From contig CAWKDB010000002.1 of assembly GCA_963848295.1 (NCBI GenBank), forward strand, positions 96,001 to 160,000: DNA of 64,000 nt, written 5' to 3'. Positions 11,238 to 63,808 of this stretch are shown in pieces. This DNA is from an uncultured delta proteobacterium (GTDB lineage: Bacteria > Myxococcota_A > Polyangia > Haliangiales > Haliangiaceae). Position 1 is the first letter of the stretch; every line of letters starts with the position of its first letter. Both the position numbers and the translations under genes were made by a program. The notes below the pieces were generated by a model, which was not told the DNA's origin, did not search any database, and worked only from the letters and a program-made list of their open reading frames with translations.

Positions 11238-13211
11238 GTGCCGGACGACGAGCGGACGCGGCGCCGGGTCTCGGACGAGACCAAGGAGCGAATCGCGGAC
11301 CTGTCGTCCGGCTGGTCCTTAGACGCACCCGCCGGCCCCGCTCCCGCCAAACCGGCCGAGCCGACCCCGGAGCCTGCGCCGGCCGACCCGGTCGCGGAGA
11401 CTGCACCGGCCCAGCCGGCGGAGGACGCGCCGCGCAAACGACCTCGTACCGTGCCGCCGCCACCGCCCGGCTCGCAAGCGCGCAAGGCGCTGGAGCAGGC
11501 GATCATCGATGCGGTCGACACTCCGGTTCCAACGCTCACGGCGCCGGCGGTCGACAGCTCTGGACCGCGCACGAAGCCGACCCAGCCTCCGCCGATTCCG
11601 AGTCGCGCGAAGTCGCCGAGCGCCCCGCCGCCGGGTGAGCGCGCGAAGTCGCCGAGCGCCCCACCGCCGGGCGTACGCGCGAAGTCGCCGAGCGCCCCGC
11701 CGCCGGGTGAGCGCGCGAAGTCGGTACCACCGGAGCGTTCGCGCCAGCCGAGCGTGCCGCCGGTGATCCCACCGATTCCGGCGATCCCGCCGATGCCACC
11801 GATCGCGGAGCGCGCGACGTCGCCGACCACGCCGCCGGTGGACGCCAAAGAGCTGACCGTCCCGGTCGGCGAGTTCGAGTCGGCCGGGCTCACCCTGACC
11901 GACGATCAGCTCAAGGCGAAGTACGCGCACGAGACGGTCGTGCGCGACGCCGCCGACGCGGTGTTGAAGCTGCCCGACCAGCCGCTCACCGTCGTCAAGG
12001 AGACGCCGGTCGAAGTCCTACTGCACGAGACCGCCGAGAAGATGCGCGGCGATCCCACCGTGTCGGATCCGTCGACGGCGCGGTTCGAGCGCGGCGATCC
12101 GACGAGCGTCGGCAGCGAGCGCGGCGATGCCACGACGATCGATCCACCGTCGGGTGGCGTGCGGCGCGCGGGCGTGTTGCGGGCCGGCGCGGCGCTGCGC
12201 CGCAAGCGCGGGCTCGCCGGCGACATGCGCTACGTGTTCACGGCGCTGCTCGGAGTGCGCCAGGCGCGGCGCGAGCTCGGCGAGCTCGAAGGCCGACAGA
12301 AGACGCGGCAAGAGGCGCGCCGCCGTCACCTCGTCACGCTGGGTCGCACCGCGATCTCCGGCGACGGCGTGCACCATCCCTCGCTCGGCAAGTCGCGCGA
12401 CGAGATGCAGGCGGTCGAGGACGATCGCTCGCGCCACGCCGGCGCGGTCGCCTCGGCGGATGCCGAGCTCGAGCGGCTCACCCGCGAACGCGACGCGCGC
12501 GCGAAGCAGCACGTCGCGGACATCGCGGCGCTCGACGCCGAGCTCGTCGAGCTCGACAAGACGCTCGAGCCGCTGACGAAGGACGCCGCGAGCGTCAAGC
12601 GGCGCGCCTCGGGCCTGCGCGACTCGGTGCAGCGCATCGAGGTCCAGATCGCGCAGACCGAGGCGAGCCTGGTCTCGGTCAAGAACCAGAAACAGGAGCG
12701 CGCGGCGATCGAAGCGGAGATCGCGACGCTCAAAGCCGATCGCCAGGCGATCCAGAAGGACGAACCGAAGATCGCGGCCGAGCTCGACTCGCTCGATCCG
12801 CGGATCGCATCGCTCGAAGCGGCGCGCACGGAAGCCCAGCGCAAGCGCGCTGAAGCGATCGAGCGCGAGGCCGCCGACGTCCGCCGCACCAGCGATATGC
12901 GAGATGCGATCGGCGCCAAGCGCAAGGTCGTCGACAGCGCCGCGACCGAAGCGGCGACCGCGCGCGACCGGGTGCTGTTCGAGCTCGGCGACCGCCTGTA
13001 CGTCGATCGCCCGGCGACGCTCACCGCGTTACTCGCGCCGATCGACACGATCGATCTAGAGCTCGGCGATACCGACCGTCGGATCATGGAGTTGCGCGAG
13101 ATCATCTCGAACGTCGACCGGGCGAAGGTCGCGCGCGGCGCCGCGGTGATCGTGCTCGCGCTCGCCGCGATCGGCTTGCTCGCCCTGTGGTTCGCGCTGT
13201 CGCTGTTCTGA
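11238..13211 (+). CDS. Hypothetical protein: Pro-rich N-terminus, long coiled coil, C-terminal TM anchor
   Basis: 657 aa ORF with coding-like codon pattern; heptad-rich central region; hydrophobic tail. Confidence 0.7.
   Translation: MPDDERTRRRVSDETKERIADLSSGWSLDAPAGPAPAKPAEPTPEPAPADPVAETAPAQPAEDAPRKRPRTVPPPPPGSQARKALEQAIIDAVDTPVPTLTAPAVDSSGPRTKPTQPPPIPSRAKSPSAPPPGERAKSPSAPPPGVRAKSPSAPPPGERAKSVPPERSRQPSVPPVIPPIPAIPPMPPIAERATSPTTPPVDAKELTVPVGEFESAGLTLTDDQLKAKYAHETVVRDAADAVLKLPDQPLTVVKETPVEVLLHETAEKMRGDPTVSDPSTARFERGDPTSVGSERGDATTIDPPSGGVRRAGVLRAGAALRRKRGLAGDMRYVFTALLGVRQARRELGELEGRQKTRQEARRRHLVTLGRTAISGDGVHHPSLGKSRDEMQAVEDDRSRHAGAVASADAELERLTRERDARAKQHVADIAALDAELVELDKTLEPLTKDAASVKRRASGLRDSVQRIEVQIAQTEASLVSVKNQKQERAAIEAEIATLKADRQAIQKDEPKIAAELDSLDPRIASLEAARTEAQRKRAEAIEREAADVRRTSDMRDAIGAKRKVVDSAATEAATARDRVLFELGDRLYVDRPATLTALLAPIDTIDLELGDTDRRIMELREIISNVDRAKVARGAAVIVLALAAIGLLALWFALSLF
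11604..11723 (+). repeat. 36-bp tandem repeat (~3.3 copies) encoding RAKSPSAPPPG(E/V)
   Basis: cgcgcgaagtcgccgagcgcccc units starting at 11604, 11640, 11676 and a partial unit at 11712. Confidence 0.9.
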
Positions 13212-13480: not shown

Positions 13481-13535
13481 GCCTCACGCTATCGTCCGGC
13501 AGCGCCGAGCGCGAGTTTTGTGCTACACGCCGCGA

Positions 13536-14540
13536 GTGGACACGGTCAGAGCCGGGTTTTGCGCGATCGTCGGCCTGCCCAATGTCGGCAAGTCGACGCT
13601 GCTCAACCGCATGCTCGGCAAGAAGCTGGTCGCGGTCTCGGCCAAGCCGCAGACCACGCGCGACCGGATCGTCGGCGTCCACATGGTCGAGCTGCCCGAC
13701 GCCGCCGAGGGCGAGCCCAACCGCGCGCAGATCGCCTACGTCGATACGCCCGGCTTGCAAGACGGCCGCGGCCCGCTGCGGCGCTACATGCGCGACGCGG
13801 CACTCGCCGCTGCGAGCGACGCCGATGCAGTGCTGCTGATCATCGATGCCACCGATCGCCGCGGGCGGGTGCCGGAGCGCCTCGATCAGCCCGACGCGAT
13901 CGCACTCGGCGCCGCGCGCAGGGGGCACCCGATCATCGTCGCACTCAACAAGGTCGATCGCATCGCGAAACCCGAGCTACTGCCGCTGATCGAGGCGTGG
14001 GCCAAGCTCGACGACGGCGTCGGTGTCGACGGCCGGGGCATGTACCCGGCCGGCAGCGCCGCCGAAGGGCGGCGCGGTTTGATCGACGTCGTGCCGATCT
14101 CGGCCGCGACCGGCGACAACGTCGAGGCACTCGAGCGCGCGATCGCCGCAAAGCTGCCGCCCGGACCGCCGATGTTTCCGCCCGAGATGATGACCGATCG
14201 ATCGCCGCAGTTCATCGCCGCGGAGATCATCCGCGAGCAGCTCTATCACCAGCTCGGCAAGGAGCTGCCGTACGCGTGCGCGGTCCAGATCGAGAGCTGG
14301 ACCGAACGCAAAGGCGAGCTCGTGATCGGCGCGATCATCGTCGTCGAGCGCGAGTCGCAGAAGGCGATCGTCGTCGGCCGCGCCGGCTCGCGGATTCGCG
14401 AGCTCGGGATCGCGGCGCGCGCGGCGGTCGGCGACGCGCTCGGCAAGACGACGCACCTCACGCTGCTCGTCAAGGTCGTCGACGAGTGGAGCCGCGGCGA
14501 GGCCTCGCTCGAGAAGCTCGGCTACGGCGGTAAGCCATGA
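13536..14540 (+). CDS. era: GTPase Era
   Basis: [25 protein letters not shown]-terminal KH region ([12 protein letters not shown]); start taken at GTG 13536. Confidence 0.95.
14031..14086 (+). repeat. Palindromic element family A, copy in era (in frame)
   Basis: ggccggg..cccggcc hairpin, gcagc, gccgcc-gaag-ggcggc hairpin, gcggtttgatcga; matches the three copies in lhr. Confidence 0.8.
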
Positions 14541-15968
14541 CCGAGCAGCATCTGCCGTTGGTCGCGATCGTCGGGCGGCCGAACGTCGGCAAGTCGACGC
14601 TGTACAACCGGCTCGTCGGCGGTCGGCCCGCGCTCGTCCACGACACGCCCGGCCTGACCCGCGATCGCCGCTACGGCGAGATCGATTACTACGGGCGTGG
14701 CTGGCGGATCGTCGACACCGGCGGCCTCGATCCCGATGCCGCGAACGAGGTGATCGGCGCAGGCATCCATCGCCAAGCGCTGCGCGCGATCGGCGAGGCC
14801 GACGCGATGGTGCTGGTCGTCGACGGGCGCGCCGGCGTGTCGGCGATCGATCACCAGCTCGCACGGCAGTTGCGCGCGACCGGCAAGCCGGTGTTCCTCG
14901 CGATCAACAAGATCGATCACTCGGTGCGCGACGACTTGGTGCACGAGTTCCACGAGCTCGGGCTCACCGCTTCGTATCCGGTCTCGGCGGCCCACGGCCG
15001 CGGCATCGACACGCTGCTCGAGGCGATCACCGAGGCGATCGACGCCCCGAAGATCGCGGCCGAAGCCGAGGAGCCCGAGCGCGATCTGCTGATGGAGCCG
15101 CCGACCGAAGCCGAAGAGATCGAAGCAGGCAAGCGCGAGCGCGAGCGCGATGCCGCGAGTGGGCCGCTGCGGGTCGCGTTCGTCGGCCGGCCGAACGCCG
15201 GCAAGTCGGCGCTGACCAATCGCCTGCTCGGCGAAGAGCGCTCGCTCGTCCATCACGAAGCCGGCACGACGACCGATCCGGTCGACTCGCCGTTCACGAT
15301 CGGCGACCGCAGCTACGTCTTGATCGATACCGCCGGGATTCGCCGCAAAGCGAAGATCGACGTCGACATCGAGAAGCTCGCGGTCACGATGGCGCTCGGT
15401 GCCGTCGCGCGCGCCGATGTCGCGGTGCTCGTGATCGACGCCGCCCTCGGTCCGGCCGAACAAGACGCGCGGATCGCCGGTAAGGTCGAGGAATCGGGAC
15501 GCGCGCTCGTGATCGCGCTCAACAAGTCCGACCTCGTCGTCGGCAGCGAGAAGCAGGCCGCGCTGCGCGATGCTGACCGAGGACACGTTCCACTTCATGC
15601 CGTGGGCGCCGGTCACGTCGCTGTCGGCGCAGCGCGGCGATGGTGTCGATCGCCTGCTCGATGTCGTCGATCGCGCGGCGGTCGAGCATCGCCGGCGGAT
15701 TCCGACCTCGCAGCTCAACCGGTTCTTCGCGGAGGTGATCGAAGAGATGCCGCCGCCGCTGCATCACGGCCGCGCGGTCAAGATCCATTACCTCACGCAA
15801 GCCGGGACCCGGCCGCCGACGTTCATCCTGTGGGCGAACACGCCCGATGGCCTCGCGCCGAGCTACAAGCGCTTCCTCGCGAACCGCCTGCGCGAAGCGT
15901 ACGGGTTTCGCGGCACGCCGCTGCGCATCTTCGTCAAGGCGCGCAAAGACCGGCACAAGGACGGCTAG
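14537..15968 (+). CDS. der: Ribosome biogenesis GTPase Der (EngA), split by an apparent +1 frameshift near 15574
   Basis: Two G domains ([26 protein letters not shown]); C-terminal part ([29 protein letters not shown]) lies in another frame (ORF 15570-15968). Confidence 0.9.
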
Positions 15969-15977
15969 CGCCAGCGG

Positions 15978-16523
15978 CTAGAAGTAACCCCAGCGAATCG
16001 AGCCGCGCACGCCGAGCGTGAACACGGTGACATCGCCGCCGAACGACGCGAGCTTGCCTTCGATCCCGAACGAGCGCGATCGACTCGCGAGGAAGTCCAG
16101 GCCGCCGCCGACCACGAGCACCGCCTCGGTCGCGCGATCGATCGGGCCGCCGCCGGTGACCATCGCGCCCACGCCGCCGAACGCGTAGGGCACGTCGCGC
16201 AAGATGTCGAAACGGAACGTGACGCCGACATCGGCGACCGCGGCGTACGACTCGGCGGTCTGCTTCGCGCTCTGGCCGCCGGTAAACGCCGCACCGGCGA
16301 GGTCGGCACGCAGCGAGAAGTCGCTGCCGATCGCGTGCTCGTAGGTCGCACCGACGGCGACCCCCGCGTCCGGGGCAACCTGAGCGGGCGTCTTGTTGCC
16401 CATTTTCGGGCCCGGGGCGCTGAACGTGGCCCAACCGAGGTCGATCGAGAGCGCTCGGTCCCCCTCGGCGAGCGCGACGCCGGGCAGGGCCGCGAGGCAT
16501 GCGATCACGAGCCACGGGCGCAT
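15978..16523 (-). CDS. Putative outer-membrane beta-barrel protein
   Basis: Signal peptide [19 protein letters not shown]; alternating amphipathic strands; ends in aromatic WGYF. Confidence 0.65.
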
Positions 16524-16653
16524 CCGCAGCAACGGTCGCAATTCCCTGGGCAACAGTCCAGCCACCGCGCCAGTCCAAAGCCGCAACCCCCTGAATTGAC
16601 GTGCTGCCGACCCGGGTGCTACATCGTCCCGGTCCTTCGCCAGCAGGTGCCCC

Positions 16654-17430
16654 GTGGCCGAGAAATCCAAGAAGACCGATAAGGCTGCAAAGCCCGCAGC
16701 CACGCCCGACGCTGCGACCCCGAGGTTCGATCCCAAGCCGGTCGTCGTCGGCGGTGAATCGTTCGTCGAACGGTTGGTGCCGCACGTCAAGAAGATCGCG
16801 GTCGGCGCGGTCGTGCTCACCATCGTGCTCGCCGCGTTCTTTGGCTACCTCGCGTGGAAGCAAGGCAAGCGCGAAGACGCGACCGCCGAGCTGACCAAGG
16901 TGATCGAGATCTCCGACGCGCCGATCCGCGCCGCAGGCTCGGGCTCTGCGGACGACAAGAAGGCGCCGAGCTACGCGTCGGATGAAGACCGCACGAAGGC
17001 GATGCTCGCGGCGCTCGCGCCGGACGCGCCGTCGGGCCCGGTCTTTCGCGGCGCGCTGCTCGCCCGAGAGGGTCGTTACGACGACGCGCTCGCCGCGTAC
17101 CGCGAGGTCCAGACCGACCTCGGCTTCGAAGGCGTGCTCGCCCGCGAAGGCATCGGCCTCGCGCTCGAGGCGAAAGCCACGGCTCCGAAAACCGAGCCGA
17201 CCGTGCGCCAGAAGGGCCTCGAGGATGCGCTCGCCGAGTTCAAGGTGATGCAGCCCGACGAAAAGGGCCCGCGCCGAGCGTACGCGCTGTATCACCAGGG
17301 CCGGATCCTCGCGATGCTCGGCAAGCGCGACGAAGCGAAGGCTGCCTTCGAGCAGGCCAAGGCCGTCGGTAAGGCACCCGAGCTCGACGCCACGATCGAA
17401 GAGCGCTTGATCAACCTCGGAGCTTCGTGA
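16654..17430 (+). CDS. YfgM-like membrane-anchored TPR protein
   Basis: N-terminal TM helix then TPR-like helices; directly upstream of a PQQ-propeller gene. Confidence 0.65.
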   Translation: MAEKSKKTDKAAKPAATPDAATPRFDPKPVVVGGESFVERLVPHVKKIAVGAVVLTIVLAAFFGYLAWKQGKREDATAELTKVIEISDAPIRAAGSGSADDKKAPSYASDEDRTKAMLAALAPDAPSGPVFRGALLAREGRYDDALAAYREVQTDLGFEGVLAREGIGLALEAKATAPKTEPTVRQKGLEDALAEFKVMQPDEKGPRRAYALYHQGRILAMLGKRDEAKAAFEQAKAVGKAPELDATIEERLINLGAS

Positions 17431-18584
17431 AGTCCACCGGGTTCATCGCGATCGCCCTCGCTGCGGCGGGCTGCGTGCGCGTGCCCTATCAGAAGGCCGA
17501 CGCGATGAGCGCCGAGCCGGTCGAGCACCTCGGCGAGGATCGGCTGTCGCTGCACTGGAAGTTCTCGACCGCGGATCGCTCGACCGAGATCGCGCCGCAG
17601 GAGTTCGCCGCGGCCGCGCTCGCGGCGGATACGCTGTACGTCGGCTCGGCGAGCGGCTGGTTCTACGCGCTGCGCGCTGCGACCGGCACCAAGCGGTGGC
17701 GCAAGCGGATCGGCGCGGTCGCGTGTGCACCGCTCATCAGTCGCGGCGTGGTCTACATCGGCTCGACCGATGGCGTGCTCGTCGCGCTCGACGCGCAGAC
17801 CGGCGTCGAGAAATGGCGTTACCTGAGCCGCGGGCCGATCGAACAAACCCCGGTGCCGACCGGCGACATCATCGTGTTCGCGAACGAGGCCGACGAGGTC
17901 GTCGCGGTCGACGCCGTCACCGGCAAGTTCAAGTGGCACTTCAAGAGCGAGACCCCGGAGGACTACAAGCTGCGGGGTCACGCCGGCGTCGCGATCGACA
18001 ACGATCTGATCTACACCGGGTTCTCGAACGGCACGATGGTCGCGCTGCGCCGCGACACCGGCTCGGTCGCGTGGTCGACCTCGCTCAAAGGCGATGCCGA
18101 TCGATTCATGGATCTCGACGGCACGCCGTTGATCCTGGGCGACCGCATCTACGTCTCGGCGTCGTCGGGCGGCGTGTACGCGATGGACAAGGCGAGCGGC
18201 CTCGTCCGCTGGCACACGGCGTTCTGGGACGTCTCGCTGCCGAGCGCGACCGGCAACGTCGGCGGGTTGTCGAGCGATGGCAAGACGATCTACGTCAGCG
18301 TCGCCGACCTCGGAACGTATGCGATCGATCTCGCCGGCAACATCATCTGGCGCGTCGGCGCGCGCGGCGGCGGCGAGCCCGGCACGCCGGTGGTCGCGGG
18401 CGACTTGCTCGTCTATTCGCTCTCGAACGACGGCTTGTTCCTCGCCGATCGCAGATCGGGTGAAACGGTCGAGTACTTCGATCCGGGCGACGGCATCTCG
18501 GCGCAACCGACGATCACGGCCGATGGCCGGCTGTTCGTGATGTCGAACCGCGGCACGTTGTTCGCGTTCGACCTGGATGATTGA
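17427..18584 (+). CDS. PQQ-repeat beta-propeller lipoprotein (BamB-like)
   Basis: Lipobox AAGC; repeated ALDAQTGVEKW / AVDAVTGKFKW type motifs. Confidence 0.8.
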   Translation: MKSTGFIAIALAAAGCVRVPYQKADAMSAEPVEHLGEDRLSLHWKFSTADRSTEIAPQEFAAAALAADTLYVGSASGWFYALRAATGTKRWRKRIGAVACAPLISRGVVYIGSTDGVLVALDAQTGVEKWRYLSRGPIEQTPVPTGDIIVFANEADEVVAVDAVTGKFKWHFKSETPEDYKLRGHAGVAIDNDLIYTGFSNGTMVALRRDTGSVAWSTSLKGDADRFMDLDGTPLILGDRIYVSASSGGVYAMDKASGLVRWHTAFWDVSLPSATGNVGGLSSDGKTIYVSVADLGTYAIDLAGNIIWRVGARGGGEPGTPVVAGDLLVYSLSNDGLFLADRRSGETVEYFDPGDGISAQPTITADGRLFVMSNRGTLFAFDLDD

Positions 18585-18620
18585 GCCGCCTCGATCGAGC
18601 CGCCGTCGGCGTCGGGCGGT

Positions 18621-19502
18621 CTAGAGCGGATCGCAGAACGGCGGCGCCGGCTTCGCGATCAAGTAGCCCTGGAGCAAGTCGCAACCGAGATCGACGAGCA
18701 CCTTCGCCTCGGCCTCGGTCTCGACGCCTTCACCGATCACCTGCATGCCGTGGCTGCGGCACAGCTCGGTGACCGAGCCGATCAGCCGTTGCTTCATCGC
18801 GTGCTTGTCGACGTCGCGAACGAGCGACATGTCGAGCTTGACGAAATCGGTGTCGAGCGGCGTGAACGTCTGCATCCGGGCGTGACCGCCACCCAGATCG
18901 TCGATCGCGATCTTGAACCCGAGCTCGCGTAGCTCGGCGACGCGGTAGCGGATGTCAGCCTGACCGTCGAGCGAGGTCCGCTCGGTGATCTCGAGCACGA
19001 CGCGGTGTGCGACCTTCGACAGCGGCGAGAACGGCGACGTCAGCTGCTTGTCGAGCAGATCGAGCAGGTGAAGATTCACGAACACGAGGCCGCGCTCGGC
19101 GGGCGACGCCGCGATCACCTGGGCGACCTGCGCACGTACCGCGCGCCCGAGCATCGGGATGCGCTCGAGGCGTTCGGCGGCATCGAGGATCGCCCCGGGG
19201 TGCGGTAGCGAGCGATCGCCGGAACGCAGCAGCGCCTCGTACGCGAACCGCGAGCGATCGCGCGCGTGGACGATCGGCTGGAAGTGCATCGCGAGGGACG
19301 CGAGGCACGCGTCGAGCTTGACCTCGAGCTCGCGGAGCTCGTGCGTACCGCGCTCGCCTTCGAACAGCGCCTGCGGTGACGTGCCCTTTGGAAAATCCTG
19401 TGCGGCCGGCTCGTCGAGCTCGATCGCGTGCATCGGCGCCGTCAAGGCGCGACCAGAGGTCGCACGGCCAGACGGTTGATCGGTACGCCGATCGGAGCCC
19501 AC
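18621..19502 (-). CDS. EAL-domain protein (putative c-di-GMP phosphodiesterase)
   Basis: FQPIV, YEALLR, FVN, LEITE, IDDLGGG, KLD, EGVET, QGY; start uncertain (GTG 19502 chosen because of an upstream TACCAT box). Confidence 0.85.
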   Translation of the reverse strand: MGSDRRTDQPSGRATSGRALTAPMHAIELDEPAAQDFPKGTSPQALFEGERGTHELRELEVKLDACLASLAMHFQPIVHARDRSRFAYEALLRSGDRSLPHPGAILDAAERLERIPMLGRAVRAQVAQVIAASPAERGLVFVNLHLLDLLDKQLTSPFSPLSKVAHRVVLEITERTSLDGQADIRYRVAELRELGFKIAIDDLGGGHARMQTFTPLDTDFVKLDMSLVRDVDKHAMKQRLIGSVTELCRSHGMQVIGEGVETEAEAKVLVDLGCDLLQGYLIAKPAPPFCDPL

Positions 19503-19592
19503 GACACCATGGTAGCGCGAGGGTCGGCTCACTCGCCAATCTAAGAATTCGACGACGATGTAGGCCCAGGACGCCGGACCATTCTAGGACAC

Positions 19593-20060
19593 CTAACAGA
19601 GCCGACGGAGGTGCTCGCGAAACTCGGCGACCACCGAAGACGCCAGATGGCCGTCGAGCTCCTGCGCCATCCGCTCGTCGATCACGGGGAGCTCGAGGAC
19701 GAGGCGGTACAGCATCAGGCATGCGCGCGCCGACAGCGGAACGAACCGGGCCTCACCGCTCAGCACGACGTTGGACGTATCCGGCGTAGTCCAGCTAACC
19801 GTCAGGGTCGTCGGATCGTAACGATATTCGAGGGTGTAGCCGAGCGAGCCGCGCTCGAGCCTGCGGGTGAACGTCACGCGTTCCGCCCGGCCGTCGTCGC
19901 GGCGGCTGACCACGTGCGCTTTCTGCAGGATCGGCAGCCACCGCGGAATCTCCGCGGCGTCTGCGAAGACCTCATAGGCGACGGAGGCGTTGACCGTCAG
20001 CGTGGTCGAGACCTCGCTGACGAGGGGGATGTCGGTGGGAAATGAGATCGCGGTGGCCAT
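19593..20060 (-). CDS. SRPBCC/START (polyketide cyclase-like) family protein
   Basis: 155 aa; AYEVFADAAEIPRWLP N-terminal signature. Confidence 0.7.
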   Translation of the reverse strand: MATAISFPTDIPLVSEVSTTLTVNASVAYEVFADAAEIPRWLPILQKAHVVSRRDDGRAERVTFTRRLERGSLGYTLEYRYDPTTLTVSWTTPDTSNVVLSGEARFVPLSARACLMLYRLVLELPVIDERMAQELDGHLASSVVAEFREHLRRLC

Positions 20061-20225
20061 GACTGCTCCTGCGCTCTTGTCCTACAGCAACCGCGATACC
20101 AGCCCGAGAGGGGCGATCGGCCACGTGGTTCTGCGGAGTTGAACGCGGCTCGGGCGGAAGACGATCGCGCCGCGGCAAGTCGAGTGGTCGCCTCCAACAG
20201 TCCCCGGTGCGCGTCTAGTGCAAAC

Positions 20226-23200
20226 CTAGCGCGGCGTCACGACGAGCCCGCGGTAGTCGAGCCGGGCACCCGCCGCCACCAGGGCCGCCGCCCACGGCGA
20301 GCTCGATGCGGCGGTCCCGTCGATCGTCTCGACCAAGAGCTCGCGACGACGTTGGCGAACGGCGAGCGCCGGCAGCGCGACGGCGAGCGCGTGCGCGACT
20401 TGCTCGTCGCCGACCGCGGCGGTCGCGATGCGATGGCCGCGCGGCTCGATCCACAGCGCGAGCTCGCCGTCGACCTGCGCGATCGCGGCGCCGACTCGGC
20501 GCGCCGGCCGCGCCGCAGGATCGCGCAGCGCCGGCCAGGGCAGGGCGCTGCCCCAGGCGCACGCCGGATCGAGCGCGGCGAGCAGGTCGACGTTGTGGCG
20601 AGGCCGCTCCCGTAGCCGGTCGATCGCCCCGGGCCACGCGAACTGCGCGCCCTCGAGCTCGGCGACGAAATAACCGCGGCGAACGACGCCGGCATCTTCC
20701 ATCGCGCGCAAGACGTCGCCGACGACCGCGAAGCCTCCCGGCAGCTCGTCGCTGCGCGCGGCCGCGCGACTCGCGATGCCCCAGCGCTCGAGCAAGCCTT
20801 CGGCGAGCATGTGCGCGCGATTCGTCGCGGTCGGCGGAGCGCCGAAGCTCGCGACCAACGACCAGCGACCGCCCGGCGATCTAACCGCACTGCCATTCGG
20901 CAGTGCTGCTGGCCGAGCGCGGGTCCCGGCGCGCGGCGCGTGGCCCGAGCCGCGGCGCGTCGCCGGTGCGGCGAGCGAGCGCAACGGCGCGAACGTATCG
21001 TTCGTGACCACGCCGGCCCACACCAGCTGCCACAGCGCCGCGGTGACGTCGGCACGCGAGGCGCGGGTCGCGGCCTCGAGGGCGACCAAGAACGACGCGC
21101 CCGCGGTCGCGAGATGCGCGGTGATCGCGGCGTGGAGCACGCCGTCGCCGGCGATCGGCTGCGCTGGCGGAGCGAGCCCGGCGGCTCGAGCGCGACGCAG
21201 CAGGATGACGCGACCATCTCGCGCGCCGAGCGCGCCCGCTCCGACCCACACGAGCTCGCCGGCGGCGCCGAGCTCGTCGAGCATGCGCGGGTGATAGTCC
21301 GCGATCCGCGCCGGCAAGATCCGGGACTCGAGCTCCGACATCGGCAGCGCGACACCCTCGAGCCGCGCGATCGCATCGCGCAACGCCCCGATCCCGCGCC
21401 GTGGTTGATCGAGCCCATGCCACCGCGGCAAGAACGCGGCGAACGTCGCCGGCGACACCGGCGCGACCTCGGCGCGCAGCTTGACGAGCGTGCGGCGGCG
21501 CAGCGTGCGCAGGACGTCCTGATCACAATTGTCGATCCCGACGCTTCCCGGGCGCAGCTCGCCCCGGACGAGCTCGCCACGAGTCTCGAGCAGGATCAGC
21601 ACCGGTTCGATCGTCGCGAGCGGCAGGGCCCAGCGCTCGGCGATCGCCTCGGCGCTGAAGATGCTGTGGGTCTTCGCGTAGCGCCGAATCAACGAGATCA
21701 ACGCGTCCGGTTCCGGCGTAGGCGTCGGTGACCCCAGGATCCCGCGATATCGAGCCTGATCGGCGGAGTCGATGATCCTGTGCTGTCCCGCGATCGTGAT
21801 CTCGACCGCGAGCTGCGCGGAGATCAGCTCGCTCACGCCTACGCTCGCGTTGACGCCTACGCATCGGACGCGTAGCTCGTCGATGGACAGATCGCCGAGC
21901 CTTCGCAAGAGATCGTGGAGCTCGTCGCGATCGCGCGCGCGACGGTCCTCGGCCGTGCGCTGGAGCTCGCTGTCGAGATCGGCGATCACGCTACTGTCGA
22001 GCAGCTCGCGCAGCTCACCGCCGCCGATCAGCTCGCGCAACAAGCCGCGATCGAGCGTCAGGGCCTGAGCCTTGCGCTCGGCGACCGGGGCATCTCCTTC
22101 GTACAGAAAAGCCGCGACGTAGTCGAACACGAGCGAGCGAGCGAACGGCGAGGCCATCGCGGTCTCCGCGGCCTCGACCCGGATCTCGCCGGACCGTAGC
22201 TGGCGCAAGATCGCGACGAGCGCGGGCACGTCGAAGATGTCGCGCAGACACTCGCGATAGGTCTCGAGCGTGATCGGAAACTGCGGGAACGCGAGCGCGA
22301 CGGCCATCAGCTGCTGCGCGCGCAGGCGCTGCGCCCACAATGGTGTGCGCTGGCCCGGGCGGCGGCGCGGCAGCAACAACGCACGCGCGGCGTTCTGGCG
22401 AAACTGGCTCGCGAACACGCTCGACCGGGCGAGCTCGTCGACCAGACGATGTTCGAACGTGTCGGGATCGAGGATCAGGGCGGCGTCGTCGGGGATGACA
22501 TCACCGTGGACGAACCGCAGCGCGATCCCGTCGTCGGTCCACATCGGGTGCACCGGATAGCCGAGTCGATCTTCGAGCTGGCGCGCGAGCACGAGGGCCC
22601 ACGGCGCGTGGACGCGGCCGCCGAACGGCGACAGGATGCACACCCGGACATCGCCGAGCTCGTCGCGGAACCGCTCGATCGTGATCGCGCGGTCGCTCGG
22701 CACCCCACCGGCGTGCGCGCGCTGCTCGGCGAGGTACGCGATCACGTTCGTCGCCGCGTGATCGTCGAGCGCATAGTCGGCGCGCAACCAGGCGTGGGTC
22801 ACCGCCGGATCTTCGTGCGCCAGCCGGCCATCGAGCTCGCGACAAAACGCGCCGAGCGCGACGCCGAGCTCGACCGGCCGGCCCGGACCCTCGCCGCGCC
22901 AGAACGGCATCTTGCCGGGCTCGCCCGGCGCCGGTCGCACGACGACGCGATCGCGCGTGATCGCCTCGATCCGCCACGTCGTCGCGCCGAGCACGAACGT
23001 CTCGCCGGGCCGGCTCTCGGCGACCATCTCCTCGTCGAGCTCACCGACCCGCGGCCCGTTCTCGCCGACGTGAACGCCGTAGCTGCCGCGATCCGGAATC
23101 GTGCCGCCCGAGGTCACCGCGATCAGCGCCGCGCCTCGGCGCGCGGTGAGCACGTCGGCCTGGCGATCCCAGACCAGTCGCGGTCGGAGCTCGGCGAACG

Positions 23201-24704
23201 CATCCGACGGATAGCGCCCGGCGAGCATATCGAGCACGGCGACGAACGCGGCCCGAGACAGGTCGCGGTAGCTCGCCGCGCGCCGGATCACGCGCTCGAG
23301 CTCGGGGACCGACCACGGTTCGACCGCGACCATGGCGACGATCTGCTGTGCGAGCACGTCGAGCGCATTGTCCGGAATCCGGACAGCTTCGACCGCGCCG
23401 TCGAGCATCCCGCGCGCCACGACCGCGGCCTCGAGCAGGTCGCCGCGGAACTTCGGGATGATCCGCCCGCGGCTCGTACCACCGACGTGATGGCCGGCGC
23501 GGCCGATCCGTTGCAAGCCACGCGCGACCGCGCCGGGTGACTCGACCTGGATCACGAGATCGACCGCGCCCATGTCGATGCCGAGCTCGAGCGACGAAGT
23601 CGCGACGATCGCGCGCAGCCGGCCGGCCTTCATCGCATCCTCGATCTCGACGCGGGCGTGACGCGCGACCGAGCCGTGATGGGCGCGCGCGAGCTCGGCG
23701 TTCTCGGGCGCGCGACCGGACTTCGCCGCGAGCTGATTCAGCTCCTGTGCGATTCGCTCGGCGAGCCGGCGCGAGTTGACGAAGATGATCGTGGTGCGAT
23801 GCGCGAGCACGAGGTCGAGCAGGCGCGGATAGATCAGCGGCCACATCCCGCCGGCGTCCTCGCGGCCACGCGCGGTCGATCCAACCGCACTGCCATTCGG
23901 CAGTGCTGACGTCGCGGGGCGAGCCCGCGACGTCGGGGTCGCGACCATGTCTTGGGCGGGGACCACGATCTGGAGATCCAGGGCAGGTCGGCTGCTCGCG
24001 TCGACGATCGCGACCGGTCGGTCCCCGCCGAGATATCGAGCCACTTCGCTAAGTGGACGTTGCGTCGCCGACAGGCCGATCCGCTGCGGTTCTGGCGAGC
24101 CGTGCGCGGTGACGAGGCGCTCGAGCCGCTCGAGGCTGAGCGCGAGGTGAACGCCTCGCTTGCCGCCGGCGAGGGCGTGGATCTCGTCGATGATCACGGT
24201 GTCGACCTCGGCGAGTCGCGCGCGCGAGCGGCCGGCGAGCAGCAGGTACAGCGACTCCGGCGTCGTGATCAGGATCTGGGCGGGCGCGACGAGCTGGCGG
24301 GCGCGCTCCTTGGCCGACGTGTCGCCGGTCCGCACGTCGATCGTGACGCTGCCGCCGATGCCGGCGAGCGGCGTGCGCAGATTCTTCTCGAGGTCGTACG
24401 CGAGCGCCTTGATCGGCGAGACGTAGACGACACGGGTGGTCGACCGAACCGCACCGCCATCCGGTGCTGCCGCCCCCGGGCGAGCCGGGACCGTCGATGC
24501 GGCGGGTTCGGGCCCGCGCAACAGGCGATCGAGGCACCACAAGAACGCCGCGAGCGTCTTGCCGCTGCCGGTGGGCGCCGCCATCAGGGTGTGACGGCCG
24601 GCGGCTACTTCGGCCCAGCCGCGGATCTGTACATCGGTCGGCTCGCCGAGCGCGCGACGGAACCACTCGCGAGTCGCGGGTGCGAAGCGGTCGAGCGCGA
24701 TCAC
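20226..24704 (-). CDS. lhr: Lhr-family ATP-dependent DEAH helicase
   Basis: APTGSGKT, YVSPIKAL, TTPESL, DEIH, GLSAT, HHGS, SSLELGID, QRIGRAGH, SGGTIPDRG, plus the long Lhr C-terminal region. Confidence 0.93.
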   Translation of the reverse strand: MIALDRFAPATREWFRRALGEPTDVQIRGWAEVAAGRHTLMAAPTGSGKTLAAFLWCLDRLLRGPEPAASTVPARPGAAAPDGGAVRSTTRVVYVSPIKALAYDLEKNLRTPLAGIGGSVTIDVRTGDTSAKERARQLVAPAQILITTPESLYLLLAGRSRARLAEVDTVIIDEIHALAGGKRGVHLALSLERLERLVTAHGSPEPQRIGLSATQRPLSEVARYLGGDRPVAIVDASSRPALDLQIVVPAQDMVATPTSRARPATSALPNGSAVGSTARGREDAGGMWPLIYPRLLDLVLAHRTTIIFVNSRRLAERIAQELNQLAAKSGRAPENAELARAHHGSVARHARVEIEDAMKAGRLRAIVATSSLELGIDMGAVDLVIQVESPGAVARGLQRIGRAGHHVGGTSRGRIIPKFRGDLLEAAVVARGMLDGAVEAVRIPDNALDVLAQQIVAMVAVEPWSVPELERVIRRAASYRDLSRAAFVAVLDMLAGRYPSDAFAELRPRLVWDRQADVLTARRGAALIAVTSGGTIPDRGSYGVHVGENGPRVGELDEEMVAESRPGETFVLGATTWRIEAITRDRVVVRPAPGEPGKMPFWRGEGPGRPVELGVALGAFCRELDGRLAHEDPAVTHAWLRADYALDDHAATNVIAYLAEQRAHAGGVPSDRAITIERFRDELGDVRVCILSPFGGRVHAPWALVLARQLEDRLGYPVHPMWTDDGIALRFVHGDVIPDDAALILDPDTFEHRLVDELARSSVFASQFRQNAARALLLPRRRPGQRTPLWAQRLRAQQLMAVALAFPQFPITLETYRECLRDIFDVPALVAILRQLRSGEIRVEAAETAMASPFARSLVFDYVAAFLYEGDAPVAERKAQALTLDRGLLRELIGGGELRELLDSSVIADLDSELQRTAEDRRARDRDELHDLLRRLGDLSIDELRVRCVGVNASVGVSELISAQLAVEITIAGQHRIIDSADQARYRGILGSPTPTPEPDALISLIRRYAKTHSIFSAEAIAERWALPLATIEPVLILLETRGELVRGELRPGSVGIDNCDQDVLRTLRRRTLVKLRAEVAPVSPATFAAFLPRWHGLDQPRRGIGALRDAIARLEGVALPMSELESRILPARIADYHPRMLDELGAAGELVWVGAGALGARDGRVILLRRARAAGLAPPAQPIAGDGVLHAAITAHLATAGASFLVALEAATRASRADVTAALWQLVWAGVVTNDTFAPLRSLAAPATRRGSGHAPRAGTRARPAALPNGSAVRSPGGRWSLVASFGAPPTATNRAHMLAEGLLERWGIASRAAARSDELPGGFAVVGDVLRAMEDAGVVRRGYFVAELEGAQFAWPGAIDRLRERPRHNVDLLAALDPACAWGSALPWPALRDPAARPARRVGAAIAQVDGELALWIEPRGHRIATAAVGDEQVAHALAVALPALAVRQRRRELLVETIDGTAASSSPWAAALVAAGARLDYRGLVVTPR
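20877..20930 (-). repeat. Palindromic element family A, lhr copy 3 (in frame)
   Basis: Sense strand: gccggg..ctcggc, cagcagc, actgcc-gaat-ggcagt, gcggttagatcg. Confidence 0.85.
23875..23934 (-). repeat. Palindromic element family A, lhr copy 2 (in frame)
   Basis: Sense strand: gacgtcgcggg-ctcgc-cccgcgacgtc, agc, actgcc-gaat-ggcagt, gcggttggatcgac; 23878-23908 matches 20878-20908 at 30 of 31 bp. Confidence 0.85.
24439..24490 (-). repeat. Palindromic element family A, lhr copy 1 (degenerate, in frame)
   Basis: Sense strand: tcccgg-ctcgc-ccgggg, gcggca, gcaccg-gatgg-cggtgc, ggttcggtcgac. Confidence 0.7.
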
Positions 24705-25351: not shown

Positions 25352-26902
25352 TTATCGCGCGGGCGCCATGCGGTGGCCGAGTGACGAGATCTCGTCTTGG
25401 GTCAGGCCGCCCGATGCCTCGATCGTCACACTCGCCGCGCGCCCGGTGCCGACCTCGGTCGCGCTGACCTCGAGGATGCCGTCCGCGTTCATCGTGAAGC
25501 TGACCTCGACCTTCGTGTGGCCGCGCGGTGCCGACTTGAGATCGCCGAGGAAGAACTTGCCGAGCCGGCGGTTCTTCGACGCCGCCTCGTGCTCGCCTTG
25601 ATAGATCTCGATCTCGACGTACGTCTGGTCGTCGCCGTTCGTCGCCAAGATCTTCTTCGCGCGCGTCGGGATGCTGGTGTTCGCGCCGATCACGACCGAC
25701 ATGCGATCGCCGGTGAGCCTGACCCCGATGTTGTGAGGCGTCACGTCCAGCAGCACGACCTCTTGCAGCTCGCCGCCGATGATCCCGGAGTGGACGGCCG
25801 CGCCCATCGCGACGATCTCGTCGGGGTTGACGCCCTTGCTAGGCGGCTTGCCGAAGATCCGGACCGCACGTTCTTGCACGGCCGGCATGCGGCTCATCCC
25901 ACCGACGAGCACGATCTGGTCGATGTCGGCCGCCGTACAGTGCGCATCGGCGAGCGCCTTGGTGCACGGCTGTTCGAGGCGTTCGAGCAGCGCCTTGCAT
26001 GCGCGCTCGAGCTGACCGCGTTCGAGCTCGCGCATGAGGTGCATCGGTCCGCTCGGGCCCGCGGCGATGAACGGCAAGTTGATGTCGGTGGTCATCGCCG
26101 ACGACAGCTCGACCTTCGCCCGCTCGGCCGCCTCCTTGAGCCGCTGCAGCGCAACCGAATCGGCGCGCAGGTCGATGCCGTGCTGCGCCGCGAACTCGTC
26201 GGCGAGCAGATCGATGATCACGCGGTCGAAGTCGTCGCCGCCGAGCGCGGTATCGCCGTAGGTCGACAGGACCTCGAACACCCCGTTCTCGATCGCGAGG
26301 ATCGAGATGTCGAACGTCCCGCCGCCGAGGTCGAACACCGCGAGCCGCTGGTTGTGCTGGTGATGCACGCCGTACGCGAGTGCCGCCGCGGTCGGCTCGT
26401 TCAGGATCGCGCGCACGGTCAGGCCGGCGATCGCGCCGGCATCCTTGGTGGCTTGGCGCTGACCGTCGTCGAAGTACGCCGGCACGGTCACGACCGCCTC
26501 GGTCACTGGCTCGCCGAGATAGTCCTCGGCGACCCGCTTCATCTTCGCGAGCACGTGAGCCGAGATCTCTTGCGGCGATCGCGGGGTCTCGGCGATCTCG
26601 ACCCAGGCATCGCCGTTCTTGGCCGCGACGATCTTGTACGGCAACCGGCTCGCGAGGTGCTGGACCTCGCTCGCCTTGCGTCCGATCAGCCGCTTCGCGC
26701 CGTAGACCGTGCGATGCGGGTTCGTCACCATCTGGCGCTTGCTCGCCGCTCCGACGACGACTTCTCCGTCGGCGTTCCACGACACCATCGACGGCGTGGT
26801 CCGCCCGCCTTCTTGGTTGTGGATCACCACGGCCTCGCCGCCTTCGAGCACCGCAATGCACGAGTTCGTCGTCCCGAGATCGATCCCGATGACGCGGCTC
26901 AT
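25352..26902 (-). CDS. Hsp70/DnaK-family chaperone lacking the C-terminal lid (516 aa)
   Basis: GIDLGTTNS, TVPAYF, NEPTAAAL, DLGGGTFD, VLLDVTP; ends shortly after SGGLTQDEI. Confidence 0.92.
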   Translation of the reverse strand: MSRVIGIDLGTTNSCIAVLEGGEAVVIHNQEGGRTTPSMVSWNADGEVVVGAASKRQMVTNPHRTVYGAKRLIGRKASEVQHLASRLPYKIVAAKNGDAWVEIAETPRSPQEISAHVLAKMKRVAEDYLGEPVTEAVVTVPAYFDDGQRQATKDAGAIAGLTVRAILNEPTAAALAYGVHHQHNQRLAVFDLGGGTFDISILAIENGVFEVLSTYGDTALGGDDFDRVIIDLLADEFAAQHGIDLRADSVALQRLKEAAERAKVELSSAMTTDINLPFIAAGPSGPMHLMRELERGQLERACKALLERLEQPCTKALADAHCTAADIDQIVLVGGMSRMPAVQERAVRIFGKPPSKGVNPDEIVAMGAAVHSGIIGGELQEVVLLDVTPHNIGVRLTGDRMSVVIGANTSIPTRAKKILATNGDDQTYVEIEIYQGEHEAASKNRRLGKFFLGDLKSAPRGHTKVEVSFTMNADGILEVSATEVGTGRAASVTIEASGGLTQDEISSLGHRMAPAR

Positions 26903-26968
26903 CGCGAAGCCAGTATATGTCGAAACTCGAGGTGCGGCGCTAGGACGGCGGCGCGTAGCGCACCTCTA

Positions 26969-61751: not shown

Positions 61752-62645
61752 TTACGGCGTGTACATCTCGCCGAGCGAGTCGCTCGCCGCCGCGAGCCCG
61801 GCGCGCCGCACGATCGAGGCGATCGGCATCGTCGACGACAACTGCAGCGAGACGATCGCATCGCGCGACACCGCGATCACGCCGGCGCTGCCGCCGGTCG
61901 TGCGCTGCAGGTCGCCGAGCGCATCGGTGACGGCGGGGCGGAGCGCCACACCGTCGGCGACTCGGGCCGCGATGCCGCGTGCGAGCGCGACGCGGAGCAC
62001 CGCTTCGCCATCGCCCGTCGCCGAGATCGCGGCGTAGTGGTCCGCCCACGTCCCTGCGCCAGCGATCGGCGAGTCGCCGATCCGGCCCGCGCGTTTGCCG
62101 GCGATGCCACCGGTCGAGGTCGCGGCGGCGAGCCGACCCTCGCGATCGCGCGCGACCGCGCCGACGGTGCCGCCGGACTTGGCGCTCGCGCCGGCGAGCA
62201 CGTCGCGCAGCCGAGCCCGCGCGCGCTCGGTCACCAGCGAGCCCGGCGCCGCGGGCTCGATCCCGACCTCGGCGGCGAATCGCCACGCAGCTGGGCCCGC
62301 GAGCAGGACGTGCTCGCCGGCGTCGAGCACCGCGCGCGCGAGCGCGATCGCGCGGCCGAGATCCGGTACCGCGCCGACCGCGCCGATGCGTTGATCGTGG
62401 CCGTCCATCACCGCGGCATCGGTCTCGACCGTCCCGTCGCGAGTCAAGGCCGCACCGATCCCGGCGTTGTACTCCGGGTCATCTTCGAGCACGCGCACCG
62501 CGGCGACGACCGCATCGAGCGCCGAGCCGCCGGCGGCGAGGATCGCATCGCCCGCTGCGGCGGCTGCTCGCACGCCGGCGCGCAAGCGATCGTGGCGATC
62601 GGGGGCGACGTCGCCGGCTCCGCCGTGGACGACGATCGCGGTCAT
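61752..62645 (-). CDS. iaaA: Isoaspartyl peptidase / L-asparaginase (Ntn hydrolase)
   Basis: VVHGGAG, LEDDPEYNAG, DAAVMDG, GTVGAVA (catalytic Thr), ATSTGG, GRIGDSP, TGDGE. Confidence 0.88.
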   Translation of the reverse strand: MTAIVVHGGAGDVAPDRHDRLRAGVRAAAAAGDAILAAGGSALDAVVAAVRVLEDDPEYNAGIGAALTRDGTVETDAAVMDGHDQRIGAVGAVPDLGRAIALARAVLDAGEHVLLAGPAAWRFAAEVGIEPAAPGSLVTERARARLRDVLAGASAKSGGTVGAVARDREGRLAAATSTGGIAGKRAGRIGDSPIAGAGTWADHYAAISATGDGEAVLRVALARGIAARVADGVALRPAVTDALGDLQRTTGGSAGVIAVSRDAIVSLQLSSTMPIASIVRRAGLAAASDSLGEMYTP

Positions 62646-63808
62646 GAGGCGTCCGCCGCGCAACGAAACCCGATGATCACGTGACGCACCGCTTTGCCGC
62701 GACCGTGGCGCGCCGCACCGCGGCCGAGTCCGCCGTAGTCGTCCCATGCCGAGCCTTTGACCGTCATCTCGTCGTCTACCTCCGCTCCGCCGTCGGCTGC
62801 GCTACGCGTCGGGCGTTCGCCCGACTTGTCTACTACCTCCGCTCCGCCGTCGGCTGCGCTACGCGTCGGGCGTTCGCCCGACTTGTCTACTACCTCCGCT
62901 CCGCCGTCGGCTGCGCTACGCGTCGGGCGTTCGCCCGACTTGTCTACTACCTCCGCTCCGCCGTCGGCTGCGCTACGCGTCGGGCGTTCGCCCGACTTGT
63001 CTACTACCTCCGCTCCGCCGTCGGCTGCGCTACGCGTCGGGCGTTCGCCCGACTTGTCTTGCAGCGGAGTCGAGGTCCACTCGTAGACGTTGCCGGCGAG
63101 ACCGAGCACACCGAACGGGCTCGCTCCGTCGGGATACCCACCGACCGGCGTCGTATCGCCAGGCCCGCCGACCGCGCAGTCGAGCTTGCTCGCCTCGAAC
63201 GCATTGCCCCACGGATACGACAGCCCGCCGTCTCCGCGGAGCGCGCGCTCGTACTCGTCTGCGGTCGGCAAGCGCCGCGGTAAGCCAGCGAGCTCACCGC
63301 GCCACGCGCAATAGGCCGCGGCTTCGGTCCAGGTCACGAGCACGACCGGATGGTCCTCGCGCCCGGCCGGCGGCGCACTGCCACGCCACACGAACCGCGC
63401 GACCTGCGTCGCGTAGTCCTGGGTGAACCCGGTCGCCTTCCACGCGGTCTTGTCGATCGCAGGCGCTGGCGCTTTGCCCGCCGCGACGAACTCCGCGTAC
63501 GCGGCTTCGGTCACCGGCATCAGGTCGATGCGGTAGCCGGCGAGCGTCACCATGTGGCGTGCCTCTTCGCCATCGAACCAGTGCTGCTCGCGCGCGGTGT
63601 CGCGCCCGGCGGTCGCGCGATAATCGTCGTACGCGGCGTCGCGCTCCTCGGGCGTCGAGCCGGCGACGAACCTGCCGGCGGGGATCGCGATCATCTGCGC
63701 GTCGGCGGCCAACGACAGCGGTGCGATCGCGGCTGCGGTCGGATGGGCCGGAGACGGCGCCGAGCACGCGCCGGCAAGCGCGACGAGGATCGCGCCCCAT
63801 CCGGTCAT
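62642..63808 (-). CDS. FGE-sulfatase (SUMF1-like) domain lipoprotein with an internal tandem repeat
   Basis: Lipobox AGAC; IPAGRF, HPVV.VTW.EA.AYC, RLPT..EYE, YPWG, GLAGNVYEW, GFRCA. Confidence 0.88.
   Translation of the reverse strand: MTGWGAILVALAGACSAPSPAHPTAAAIAPLSLAADAQMIAIPAGRFVAGSTPEERDAAYDDYRATAGRDTAREQHWFDGEEARHMVTLAGYRIDLMPVTEAAYAEFVAAGKAPAPAIDKTAWKATGFTQDYATQVARFVWRGSAPPAGREDHPVVLVTWTEAAAYCAWRGELAGLPRRLPTADEYERALRGDGGLSYPWGNAFEASKLDCAVGGPGDTTPVGGYPDGASPFGVLGLAGNVYEWTSTPLQDKSGERPTRSAADGGAEVVDKSGERPTRSAADGGAEVVDKSGERPTRSAADGGAEVVDKSGERPTRSAADGGAEVVDKSGERPTRSAADGGAEVDDEMTVKGSAWDDYGGLGRGAARHGRGKAVRHVIIGFRCAADAS
62776..63059 (-). repeat. Five identical 57-bp tandem units containing a hairpin, in frame (DKSGERPTRSAADGGAEVV)
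   Basis: Period 57; each unit has the palindrome gtcgggcg-aa-cgcccgac preceded by gtag-acaa. Confidence 0.95.

What the first reader, a model, noticed from the sequence alone, without database searches (positions are those of the whole stretch)
14031..24490. Family A: ~55-bp two-hairpin element inserted in frame in era and three times in lhr
Seen in sequence: four copies at 14031-14086 (+, era) and 20877-20930, 23875-23934, 24439-24490 (-, lhr), all in the same orientation relative to the gene. Layout is variable hairpin 1, CAGC, RCYGCC-GAAK-GGCRGY, GCGGTTNGRTCG (the 24439 copy has a shortened second hairpin). The second stem covaries (actgcc/ggcagt in lhr versus gccgcc/ggcggc in era), and hairpin 1 keeps pairing while its sequence differs. 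The element is read in different frames (ALPNGSAVRS in Lhr, [11 protein letters not shown] in Era), so the peptide is not what is conserved. The copies appear to sit in loops between conserved motifs. Established knowledge: Rickettsia palindromic elements insert in frame in housekeeping genes, and REP elements are associated with RAYT/TnpA(REP) nucleases. Inference: this is a possibly undescribed family of coding-compatible mobile palindromes or a structured mRNA motif.
Basis: partly seen in the sequence, partly recalled or inferred. Interest (0 to 1): 0.8.

Follow-up and report, generated by a model that had tools for sequence, protein, structure and literature searches.

The report
Tagged hairpin repeats jumping into genes
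A 57-base two-hairpin DNA repeat has inserted itself in frame into many working genes of soil myxobacteria, and a four-letter tag beside its hairpin likely tells an as yet unidentified enzyme where to cut and paste it.

Summary
The four copies belong to a family with 183 hits at 158 sites in this genome, 117 of them inside predicted genes. Era and Lhr orthologs lack the segments. In a sister genome, 32 copies map to sites here that are exactly 57 bp shorter. Both stems covary. The mRNA-motif reading fails: most coding copies are antisense, and frame use simply follows the TCGA target.

A second 57-bp subfamily sits in this window (5 tandem copies, 62771-63055). Hairpin 2 carries a REP-type tag at its 5' foot: GCAG in subfamily A, GTAG in B. 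The tag covaries with the target. GTAG copies are followed by CA (27 of 44) and GCAG copies rarely (5 of 37); GCAG copies have CG at both ends. This matches the published guide rule of REP-associated HUH nucleases, so a RAYT-like enzyme acting on single-stranded DNA is the likely mover.

No cognate gene was found, and junction mismatches remain unexplained. The scan found subfamily A before on other DNA of this genome (e1-9583216); that note's summary does not mention subfamily B or the tag-target link. Verdict: new variant of a known kind (REP-like, with RPE behaviour).

The parts
14028..14084 (+). Subfamily A element (57 bp, GCAG tag) in frame in era, between C|G dinucleotides. The exact ends are inferred: they can slide within the TCGA repeated at both junctions (14026-14029 and 14083-14086).
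13518..14540 (+). era, host gene and the only Era match in this genome; the insert lies just before the VPISA strand
20878..20934 (-). Subfamily A element (57 bp) in frame in lhr, near residue 1265; genus orthologs are exactly 19 aa shorter here
23878..23934 (-). Subfamily A element (57 bp) in frame in lhr, near residue 265
24442..24495 (-). Subfamily A element (54 bp, 3 nt lost in hairpin 2) in frame in lhr, near residue 77
20226..24704 (-). lhr, host gene (1492 aa, open frame)
62771..63055 (-). Subfamily B: five head-to-tail 57-bp units (GTAG tag, 3-nt loop in hairpin 2), in frame
62642..63808 (-). FGE-sulfatase-like gene hosting the B array; 388 aa against 260-298 aa for the aligned part of 11 orthologs

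Best explanation
This is a 57-bp non-autonomous mobile repeat of one Kofleriaceae genus that inserts into genes without breaking the frame, and it is likely cut out and pasted as folded single-stranded DNA by a RAYT/TnpA(REP)-like HUH nuclease acting in trans. Shown: copy number, recent insertion at empty sites, the two stems, the tag, the target motifs and the selection on frame. Inferred: the enzyme binds hairpin 2 and its G-Y-A-G tag; tag bases 2 and 4 pair with a dinucleotide (GCAG picks C|G, GTAG picks C|A); cuts fall once 5' of hairpin 1 and once in the 3' tail, 57 nt apart; the piece is joined into a matching site elsewhere. Because 57 is a multiple of three and the commonly used frames are open, genes tolerate it as a 19-residue loop. 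Selection then removes frameshifted copies and, in one frame, the Trp/Cys-coding variants. Head-to-tail arrays arise by local duplication.
For: 183 hits at 158 sites. Empty orthologs for Era and Lhr. 32 exact 57-bp empty sites against a sister genome at 88.6% identity. Compensation in both stems: 193 of 388 and 119 of 163 variant cells against 54 expected each; slid controls much lower. G-T wobbles exceed A-C on the tagged strand, 71:41 and 52:32. Hairpin-2 loop is G-N-A(-K), the DNA mini-hairpin motif that is far less stable as RNA (PMC13037366 passages). Tag is GCAG in 145 and TCAG in 32 of 195 A copies, GTAG in B. CA follows GTAG copies in 27 of 44 sites and GCAG copies in 5 of 37; CG at both ends in 14 of 44 against 24 of 37; the contrast holds without the two focal genomes, 12 of 22 against 5 of 34. 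All 5 clean B empty sites already hold ACAA. GCAG copies with a B-type left end still use CG. The rule T2/G4 selects CA is published (PMC8266576 section 21).
Against: No Y1/RAYT-like locus carries the element within 1.5 kb: 0 of 71 loci, some of them duplicates. Y1 genes occur in 88 of 91 genus genomes whatever the copy load. The tag-target test rests on about three related lineages, so its p-values overstate, and single copies break the rule (2 GTAG copies in G009 with CG; 5 GCAG copies with CA). GCAG to C|G is my extension of the rule, not a tested case. In 28 A pairs the empty site lacks the G of C|G in 7, against 0.86 expected. Where the two junctions differ at the two bases after the proposed cut, the empty site matches the left junction 6:0, not the right. 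Target similarity runs past two bases (TCGAC, GACAAG). There is no obvious replichore bias.
Confidence: 0.6

Rival explanations
1. The element moves by short-homology recombination: a 57-nt circle or concatemer is integrated where the target resembles its own junction over 6-10 bases (tyrosine-recombinase-like, IS110-like or annealing-based), and donor bases can overwrite target bases.
For: Targets resemble the junction beyond two bases. Left-end bases covary with the right flank. Array crossovers spread over about 10 bases. Divergence doubles within 8 bp of the junction, and the empty sites show excess mismatches.
Against: GCAG copies with a CAAG left end do not land at CAAG (G016 0 of 6, G073 0 of 5, G009 0 of 5), so junction identity alone does not set the target. 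No IS110 in 5 of 5 high-copy genomes (genomes 85-96% complete).
Confidence: 0.18
2. A classical MITE moved by a DDE transposase that duplicates CG or TCGA.
For: TCGA stands at both junctions of A copies, and frame use follows the TCGA register.
Against: The ends share no inverted repeat beyond the palindromic TCGA. The left and right cores do not covary as duplicates would. Subfamily B uses a non-palindromic target.
Confidence: 0.07
3. An RNA copy is reverse-transcribed and inserted by a group II intron-type RT.
For: Three group II-like RTs in this genome; wobble pairs fit RNA as well as DNA.
Against: No RT match in 2 of 5 high-copy genomes, including the sister genome (89-90% complete). G-N-A loops favour DNA. 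A REP-type tag would not be needed.
Confidence: 0.07
4. A functional mRNA structure, or a protein linker kept by selection for the host.
For: Strong covariation; inserts are kept even in era.
Against: 77 of 117 coding sites are antisense, four frames are used, and sites differ between sister genomes. No Rfam family in the window.
Confidence: 0.04

Closest known systems
GTAG-tagged REPs and their RAYT/TnpA(REP) nucleases (PMC3733652, PMC6006769, PMC8266576)
   Same: G-Y-A-G tag at the 5' foot of a short stem-loop (GYAG variants are described), high copy number, genus-restricted, tandem clusters, some intragenic copies; the target follows the published tag rule.
   Different: A fixed 57-nt unit with a second, untagged hairpin instead of inverted REP doublets; 74% of sites in coding DNA; natural GCAG and GTAG versions with different targets; no REPtron found.
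Rickettsia palindromic elements, RPE (as summarised in PMC10969869 and PMC2229807; the original papers were not available)
   Same: In-frame insertion into unrelated, conserved genes; added peptide tolerated.
   Different: RPEs are 105-150 bp with terminal inverted repeats and a conserved peptide. This unit is 57 bp, has no such repeats, is read in four frames on both strands, and shows a candidate cutting signal.
PATEs of Haloquadratum (PMC3119063)
   Same: No terminal inverted repeats, near-terminal hairpins, too short to code, short target oligonucleotide; a 52-bp form is reported as possibly mobile.
   Different: No parent IS605-type element with these ends was found, and no TnpB in 5 of 5 high-copy genomes. 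The passages I read do not describe PATEs as in-frame coding inserts.
Cyanobacterial small dispersed repeats (Elhai 2008; paper not available, seen only as cited in PMC4390886 and PMC2884548)
   Same: Very small, tandemly repeated, possibly mobile; SDR5 inserts precisely within a short palindromic site (HIP1).
   Different: About 20 bp long. HIP1-type words are not over-represented in this genome.

Membership tests
GTAG-type REP | GT[AG]G or GYAG tetranucleotide at the 5' foot of a hairpin | tested here: met
   GTAG in subfamily B; GCAG 145 and TCAG 32 of 195 A copies
GTAG-type REP | High-copy short stem-loop, lineage-restricted | tested here: met
GTAG-type REP | Mostly extragenic | tested here: not met
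   117 of 158 sites inside predicted genes (own gene caller)
GTAG-type REP | Inverted doublets (REPIN/BIME) | tested here: not met
   Single units or head-to-tail arrays; hairpin 1 is untagged and unlike hairpin 2
GTAG-type REP | Cognate RAYT gene flanked by the repeat (REPtron) | tested here: not met
   0 of 71 Y1-like loci; the assemblies searched are 77-96% complete
GTAG-type REP | Tag selects the cleavage dinucleotide | tested here: inconclusive
   Covariation fits, but few lineages, and the junction data partly conflict
GTAG-type REP | Cleavage and strand transfer by TnpA(REP) in vitro | not testable with these tools
   needs biochemistry
RPE | In-frame insertion in unrelated conserved genes with empty orthologs | tested here: met
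RPE | 105-150 bp, terminal inverted repeat, conserved peptide | tested here: not met
   57 bp, no such repeat, four frames
RPE | Sequence relationship to RPE families | not tested
   no RPE sequences were fetched
PATE | No terminal inverted repeats, near-terminal palindromes, non-coding size | tested here: met
PATE | No target duplication | tested here: inconclusive
   Cores do not covary, but the junctions overlap in TCGA
PATE | Ends related to an IS605-type parent | tested here: not met
   No separated left and right ends around a gene in this genome; no TnpB
MITE (DDE) | Terminal inverted repeats and target duplication | tested here: not met

The most novel reading that the evidence does not exclude
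A minimal 57-nt REP-type transposon whose one-base tag change (GCAG to GTAG) has naturally retargeted it from C|G to C|A sites, and which lives mainly inside genes as a frame-neutral 19-codon insert. It would be a natural demonstration of guide-programmed HUH insertion and a concrete mechanism for RPE-like coding repeats.
Probability: 0.45. Interest if true: 0.8.

Novelty: new variant of a known kind. Interest (0 to 1): 0.62.

Why it matters
How RPE-like repeats get into genes, and whether REPs really transpose as defined units, are open questions in the papers read (PMC2229807, PMC3733652, PMC8266576). This family offers a fixed unit, dozens of filled/empty site pairs, and natural tag variants with different targets, so the guide rule can be tested with short oligonucleotides. 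It also marks over 100 loop positions that tolerate 19 extra residues, including one in Era. If the enzyme is found, it would be a compact, retargetable single-strand inserter.

Tried and rejected
Mobiliser searches:
- Y1 (PF01797) has 9 matches here and NF047646 has 14, none with the element beside it. One weak partial hit near a G057 gene is ordinary coding sequence.
- The Y1 shared with the sister genome has no close match in the other three high-copy genomes.
- IS110: 0 of 1 and 0 of 5 genomes. TnpB: 0 of 5. Y2/IS91: 1 of 5. RT: 3 of 5.
- No recurrent transposase-like neighbour among 103 metagenome and 64 genome loci, judged by matches to this genome's proteins and a Y1 profile.

Other collections:
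- Viral contigs: 0 matches in two scans. Phages: 0. Plasmids: one partial chance hit. Rfam: 0 in the window.
- Sequencing runs: no RNA holder listed. Laid contigs showed no joint that skips a copy and were too fragmentary to use.

Ideas dropped:
- Guide in the hairpin loop: no covariation with the core.
- Pairing of the two TCGA ends, predicted by folding: no covariation.
- 'Target equals junction at a fixed distance from hairpin 1': contradicted by GCAG copies with a CAAG left end.
- Polarising the TCCA empty sites with outgroups: too divergent; one site suggests TCGA is ancestral.
- Single-sequence Era fold: pLDDT 41, not used.

Literature: no description of this family was found in my searches, which cover open-access full text only. 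Ogata 2002 and Elhai 2008 were not held. Supplements of the REP surveys (consensus figures and tables) were not seen and could list a related family.
Full report
OBSERVATION. The four copies are real and lie in open frames of Era and Lhr. A profile built from 78 pattern hits finds 183 matches at E<=0.05 in the 7.78-Mb, 85% complete genome, which collapse to 158 sites with 11 tandem arrays. By my own dicodon gene caller (not a standard annotation), 117 sites are inside genes, 14 overlap gene ends and 27 are intergenic. The window holds no Rfam family. Titles of matching genome records read Kofleriaceae or 'Deltaproteobacteria' MAGs; 2 of 64 loci come from a record titled Acidobacteriota, which I leave unresolved here.

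ANATOMY. Subfamily A is 57 bp: hairpin 1 (8 pairs, variable sequence), a G-C-A-G tag, hairpin 2 (8 pairs, loop G-N-A-K), then a 10-base tail, with TCGA at both junctions. In 195 distinct non-orthologous copies, cells paired are 84% and 96% in the two stems, against 24-50% and 24-69% for slid partners. Variant 5' bases are compensated in 193 of 388 and 119 of 163 cells, against about 54 expected in each. Relatedness inflates these counts. G-T exceeds A-C on the tagged strand, so that strand is the one that folds.

MOBILITY. Era orthologs lack the segment in 19 of 20 rows (one truncated row is uninformative). Lhr orthologs lack all three segments; sites 1 and 2 are variable loops, and at site 3 the genus rows are exactly 19 aa shorter (17-18 of 20 rows cover each site). 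The Era insert falls between two blocks that align to E. coli Era. Sister genome G118 is 88.6% identical. I fetched 90 stretches around its 118 pattern places plus 20 contig starts. Of 103 profile hits there, 32 map to sites here that are exactly 57 bp shorter (2 of these are array copy-number differences), 11 are shared, 29 differ by other lengths, 29 have no ortholog and 2 were duplicates. The A pattern matches 28 of 138 family genomes, 26 of 90 in the genus besides this one, with high loads in five (128, 118, 85, 67, 34). Outside the family there was one 3-mismatch hit in 394 genomes. G010, marked unpublished, is one row in the ortholog alignments; G010 and G066 are rows in the genus tallies. 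No claim depends on them.

WHY IT SITS IN GENES. TCGA occurs in coding DNA with its T at codon positions 1, 2, 3 in 18.0, 79.7 and 2.3% of cases; element sites split 21:94:2 (chi-square p=0.91, against 1e-8 for any CG). Frame use is therefore set by the target. Coding sites are still under-used relative to TCGA supply (117-131 of 158 against 90%). Internal indels are multiples of three in 13 of 13 coding copies but in 2 of 13 others; the 11 frameshifting ones do not have coding-like DNA on both sides. In the main register, antisense outnumbers sense 67:27. Sense copies in that register avoid the variants that would give Trp and Cys: 3 of 24 and 4 of 24 against 25 of 30 and 29 of 30 in relatives. 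The contrast survives control for left-end subtype. I infer a peptide-level filter. An mRNA-motif role does not fit these numbers.

A SECOND SUBFAMILY. A perfect 5 x 57-bp array at 62771-63055 adds 95 residues to an FGE-sulfatase-like protein; 9 of 11 orthologs could be displayed at the site and all lack it. It has the same plan but a G-T-A-G tag and a three-base G-N-A loop. This genome has 19 such sites with 34 copies, 10 of 11 coding ones in sense. Three-base-loop forms occur in 30 of 90 genus genomes, including some with no A match, so the superfamily is wider than either pattern shows.

TAG AND TARGET. GTAG at a hairpin foot is the REP signature, and GYAG variants are known (PMC3733652 section 5; PMC6006769 section 12). 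In a Marinomonas RAYT, tag bases 2 and 4 select C|A, and tag changes retarget the cut (PMC8266576 section 21). By extension, GCAG should select C|G. Observed: A copies have CG at the left core in 126 of 135 and CAA in the right flank in 1 of 135; B copies have CAA in 21 of 35. Of 21 B sites in G118, 5 have exact 57-bp empty sites here and all 5 already hold ACAA; 5 are shared, 6 have no ortholog, 5 differ otherwise. Across 81 three-base-loop sites, taken from the first-listed places of each genome, CA follows GTAG copies in 27 of 44 and GCAG copies in 5 of 37, while CG stands at both ends in 14 of 44 and 24 of 37. GCAG copies that share B's left end still use CG, which separates the tag from junction identity. 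All four window copies have C|G at both ends. G-N-A loops form unusually stable hairpins in DNA and much weaker ones in RNA (PMC13037366 passages), which fits a single-stranded DNA substrate.

WHAT DOES NOT FIT. No cognate gene was found: 0 of 71 Y1-like loci carry a copy within 1.5 kb, and the nearest in this genome is 2.1 kb away inside another gene. Y1 genes are almost universal in the genus. In 28 clean A pairs (4 of 32 dropped: 2 array rows, 2 out of register), the empty site lacks the G in 7, against 0.86 expected. The empty site matches the left junction 8:0 over the three bases C-G-A, which would put the cut after the A. Divergence near junctions is 0.21-0.32 against 0.10-0.15 further off. 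Array crossovers spread over about 10 bases. These keep a short-homology mechanism alive. The tag test covers few independent lineages.

COMPARISON AND VERDICT. It works like a tagged REP and behaves like an RPE; it is not a full member of either, nor of the PATEs (PMC3119063 passages). Papers seen: PMC3733652 (passages, sections 5 and 15), PMC6006769 (abstract, sections 3, 12, 20), PMC8266576 (passages, section 21), and passages of PMC10969869, PMC2229807, PMC3119063, PMC13037366, PMC4390886 and PMC2884548. That Era is essential is recalled, not from a call. My literature searches found no account of this family. An earlier scan note describes subfamily A in this genome and found no enzyme. 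That it is a mobile, frame-neutral repeat is about 0.95 likely; the HUH tag-guided mechanism about 0.6. New variant of a known kind; interest 0.62.

Noticed in passing
G000:C10:1438933-1439242 and 12 other places: A separate ~200-bp repeat module lies upstream of most members of a multicopy ~250-aa Y1 family and also stands alone. It is not similar to the 57-bp element. Y1 matches per genome range from 0 to 37 in the genus, which suggests an active transposon.
   Followed up: partly
G000:C10:4529923-4534761; L100; L256: The second Lhr paralog also carries tandem copies. Another genome has an independent insertion in the same lhr loop as window 23878 but in another frame, and G118 has one more in the paralog. 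Lhr loops look like hotspots.
   Followed up: partly
G000:C10:195705, 1464302, 2576915, 3330445: Short 42-bp forms with hairpin 1 cut by 15 nt, still a multiple of three. Tandem periods of 51-60 bp occur in other genus genomes.
   Followed up: no
window 25352-26902: The PF10712 'NAD-GH' match on the + strand ORF 25397-27037 lies opposite the better-scoring - strand gene call and is probably an antisense shadow.
   Followed up: no
window 11351-11804: Imperfect 18-36 bp tandem repeats inside the 657-aa ORF upstream of era, which has no Pfam match.
   Followed up: no
G000:C10:53669-54262: One IS91/ISCR-like Y2 transposase, found in only 1 of the 5 high-copy genomes.
   Followed up: partly
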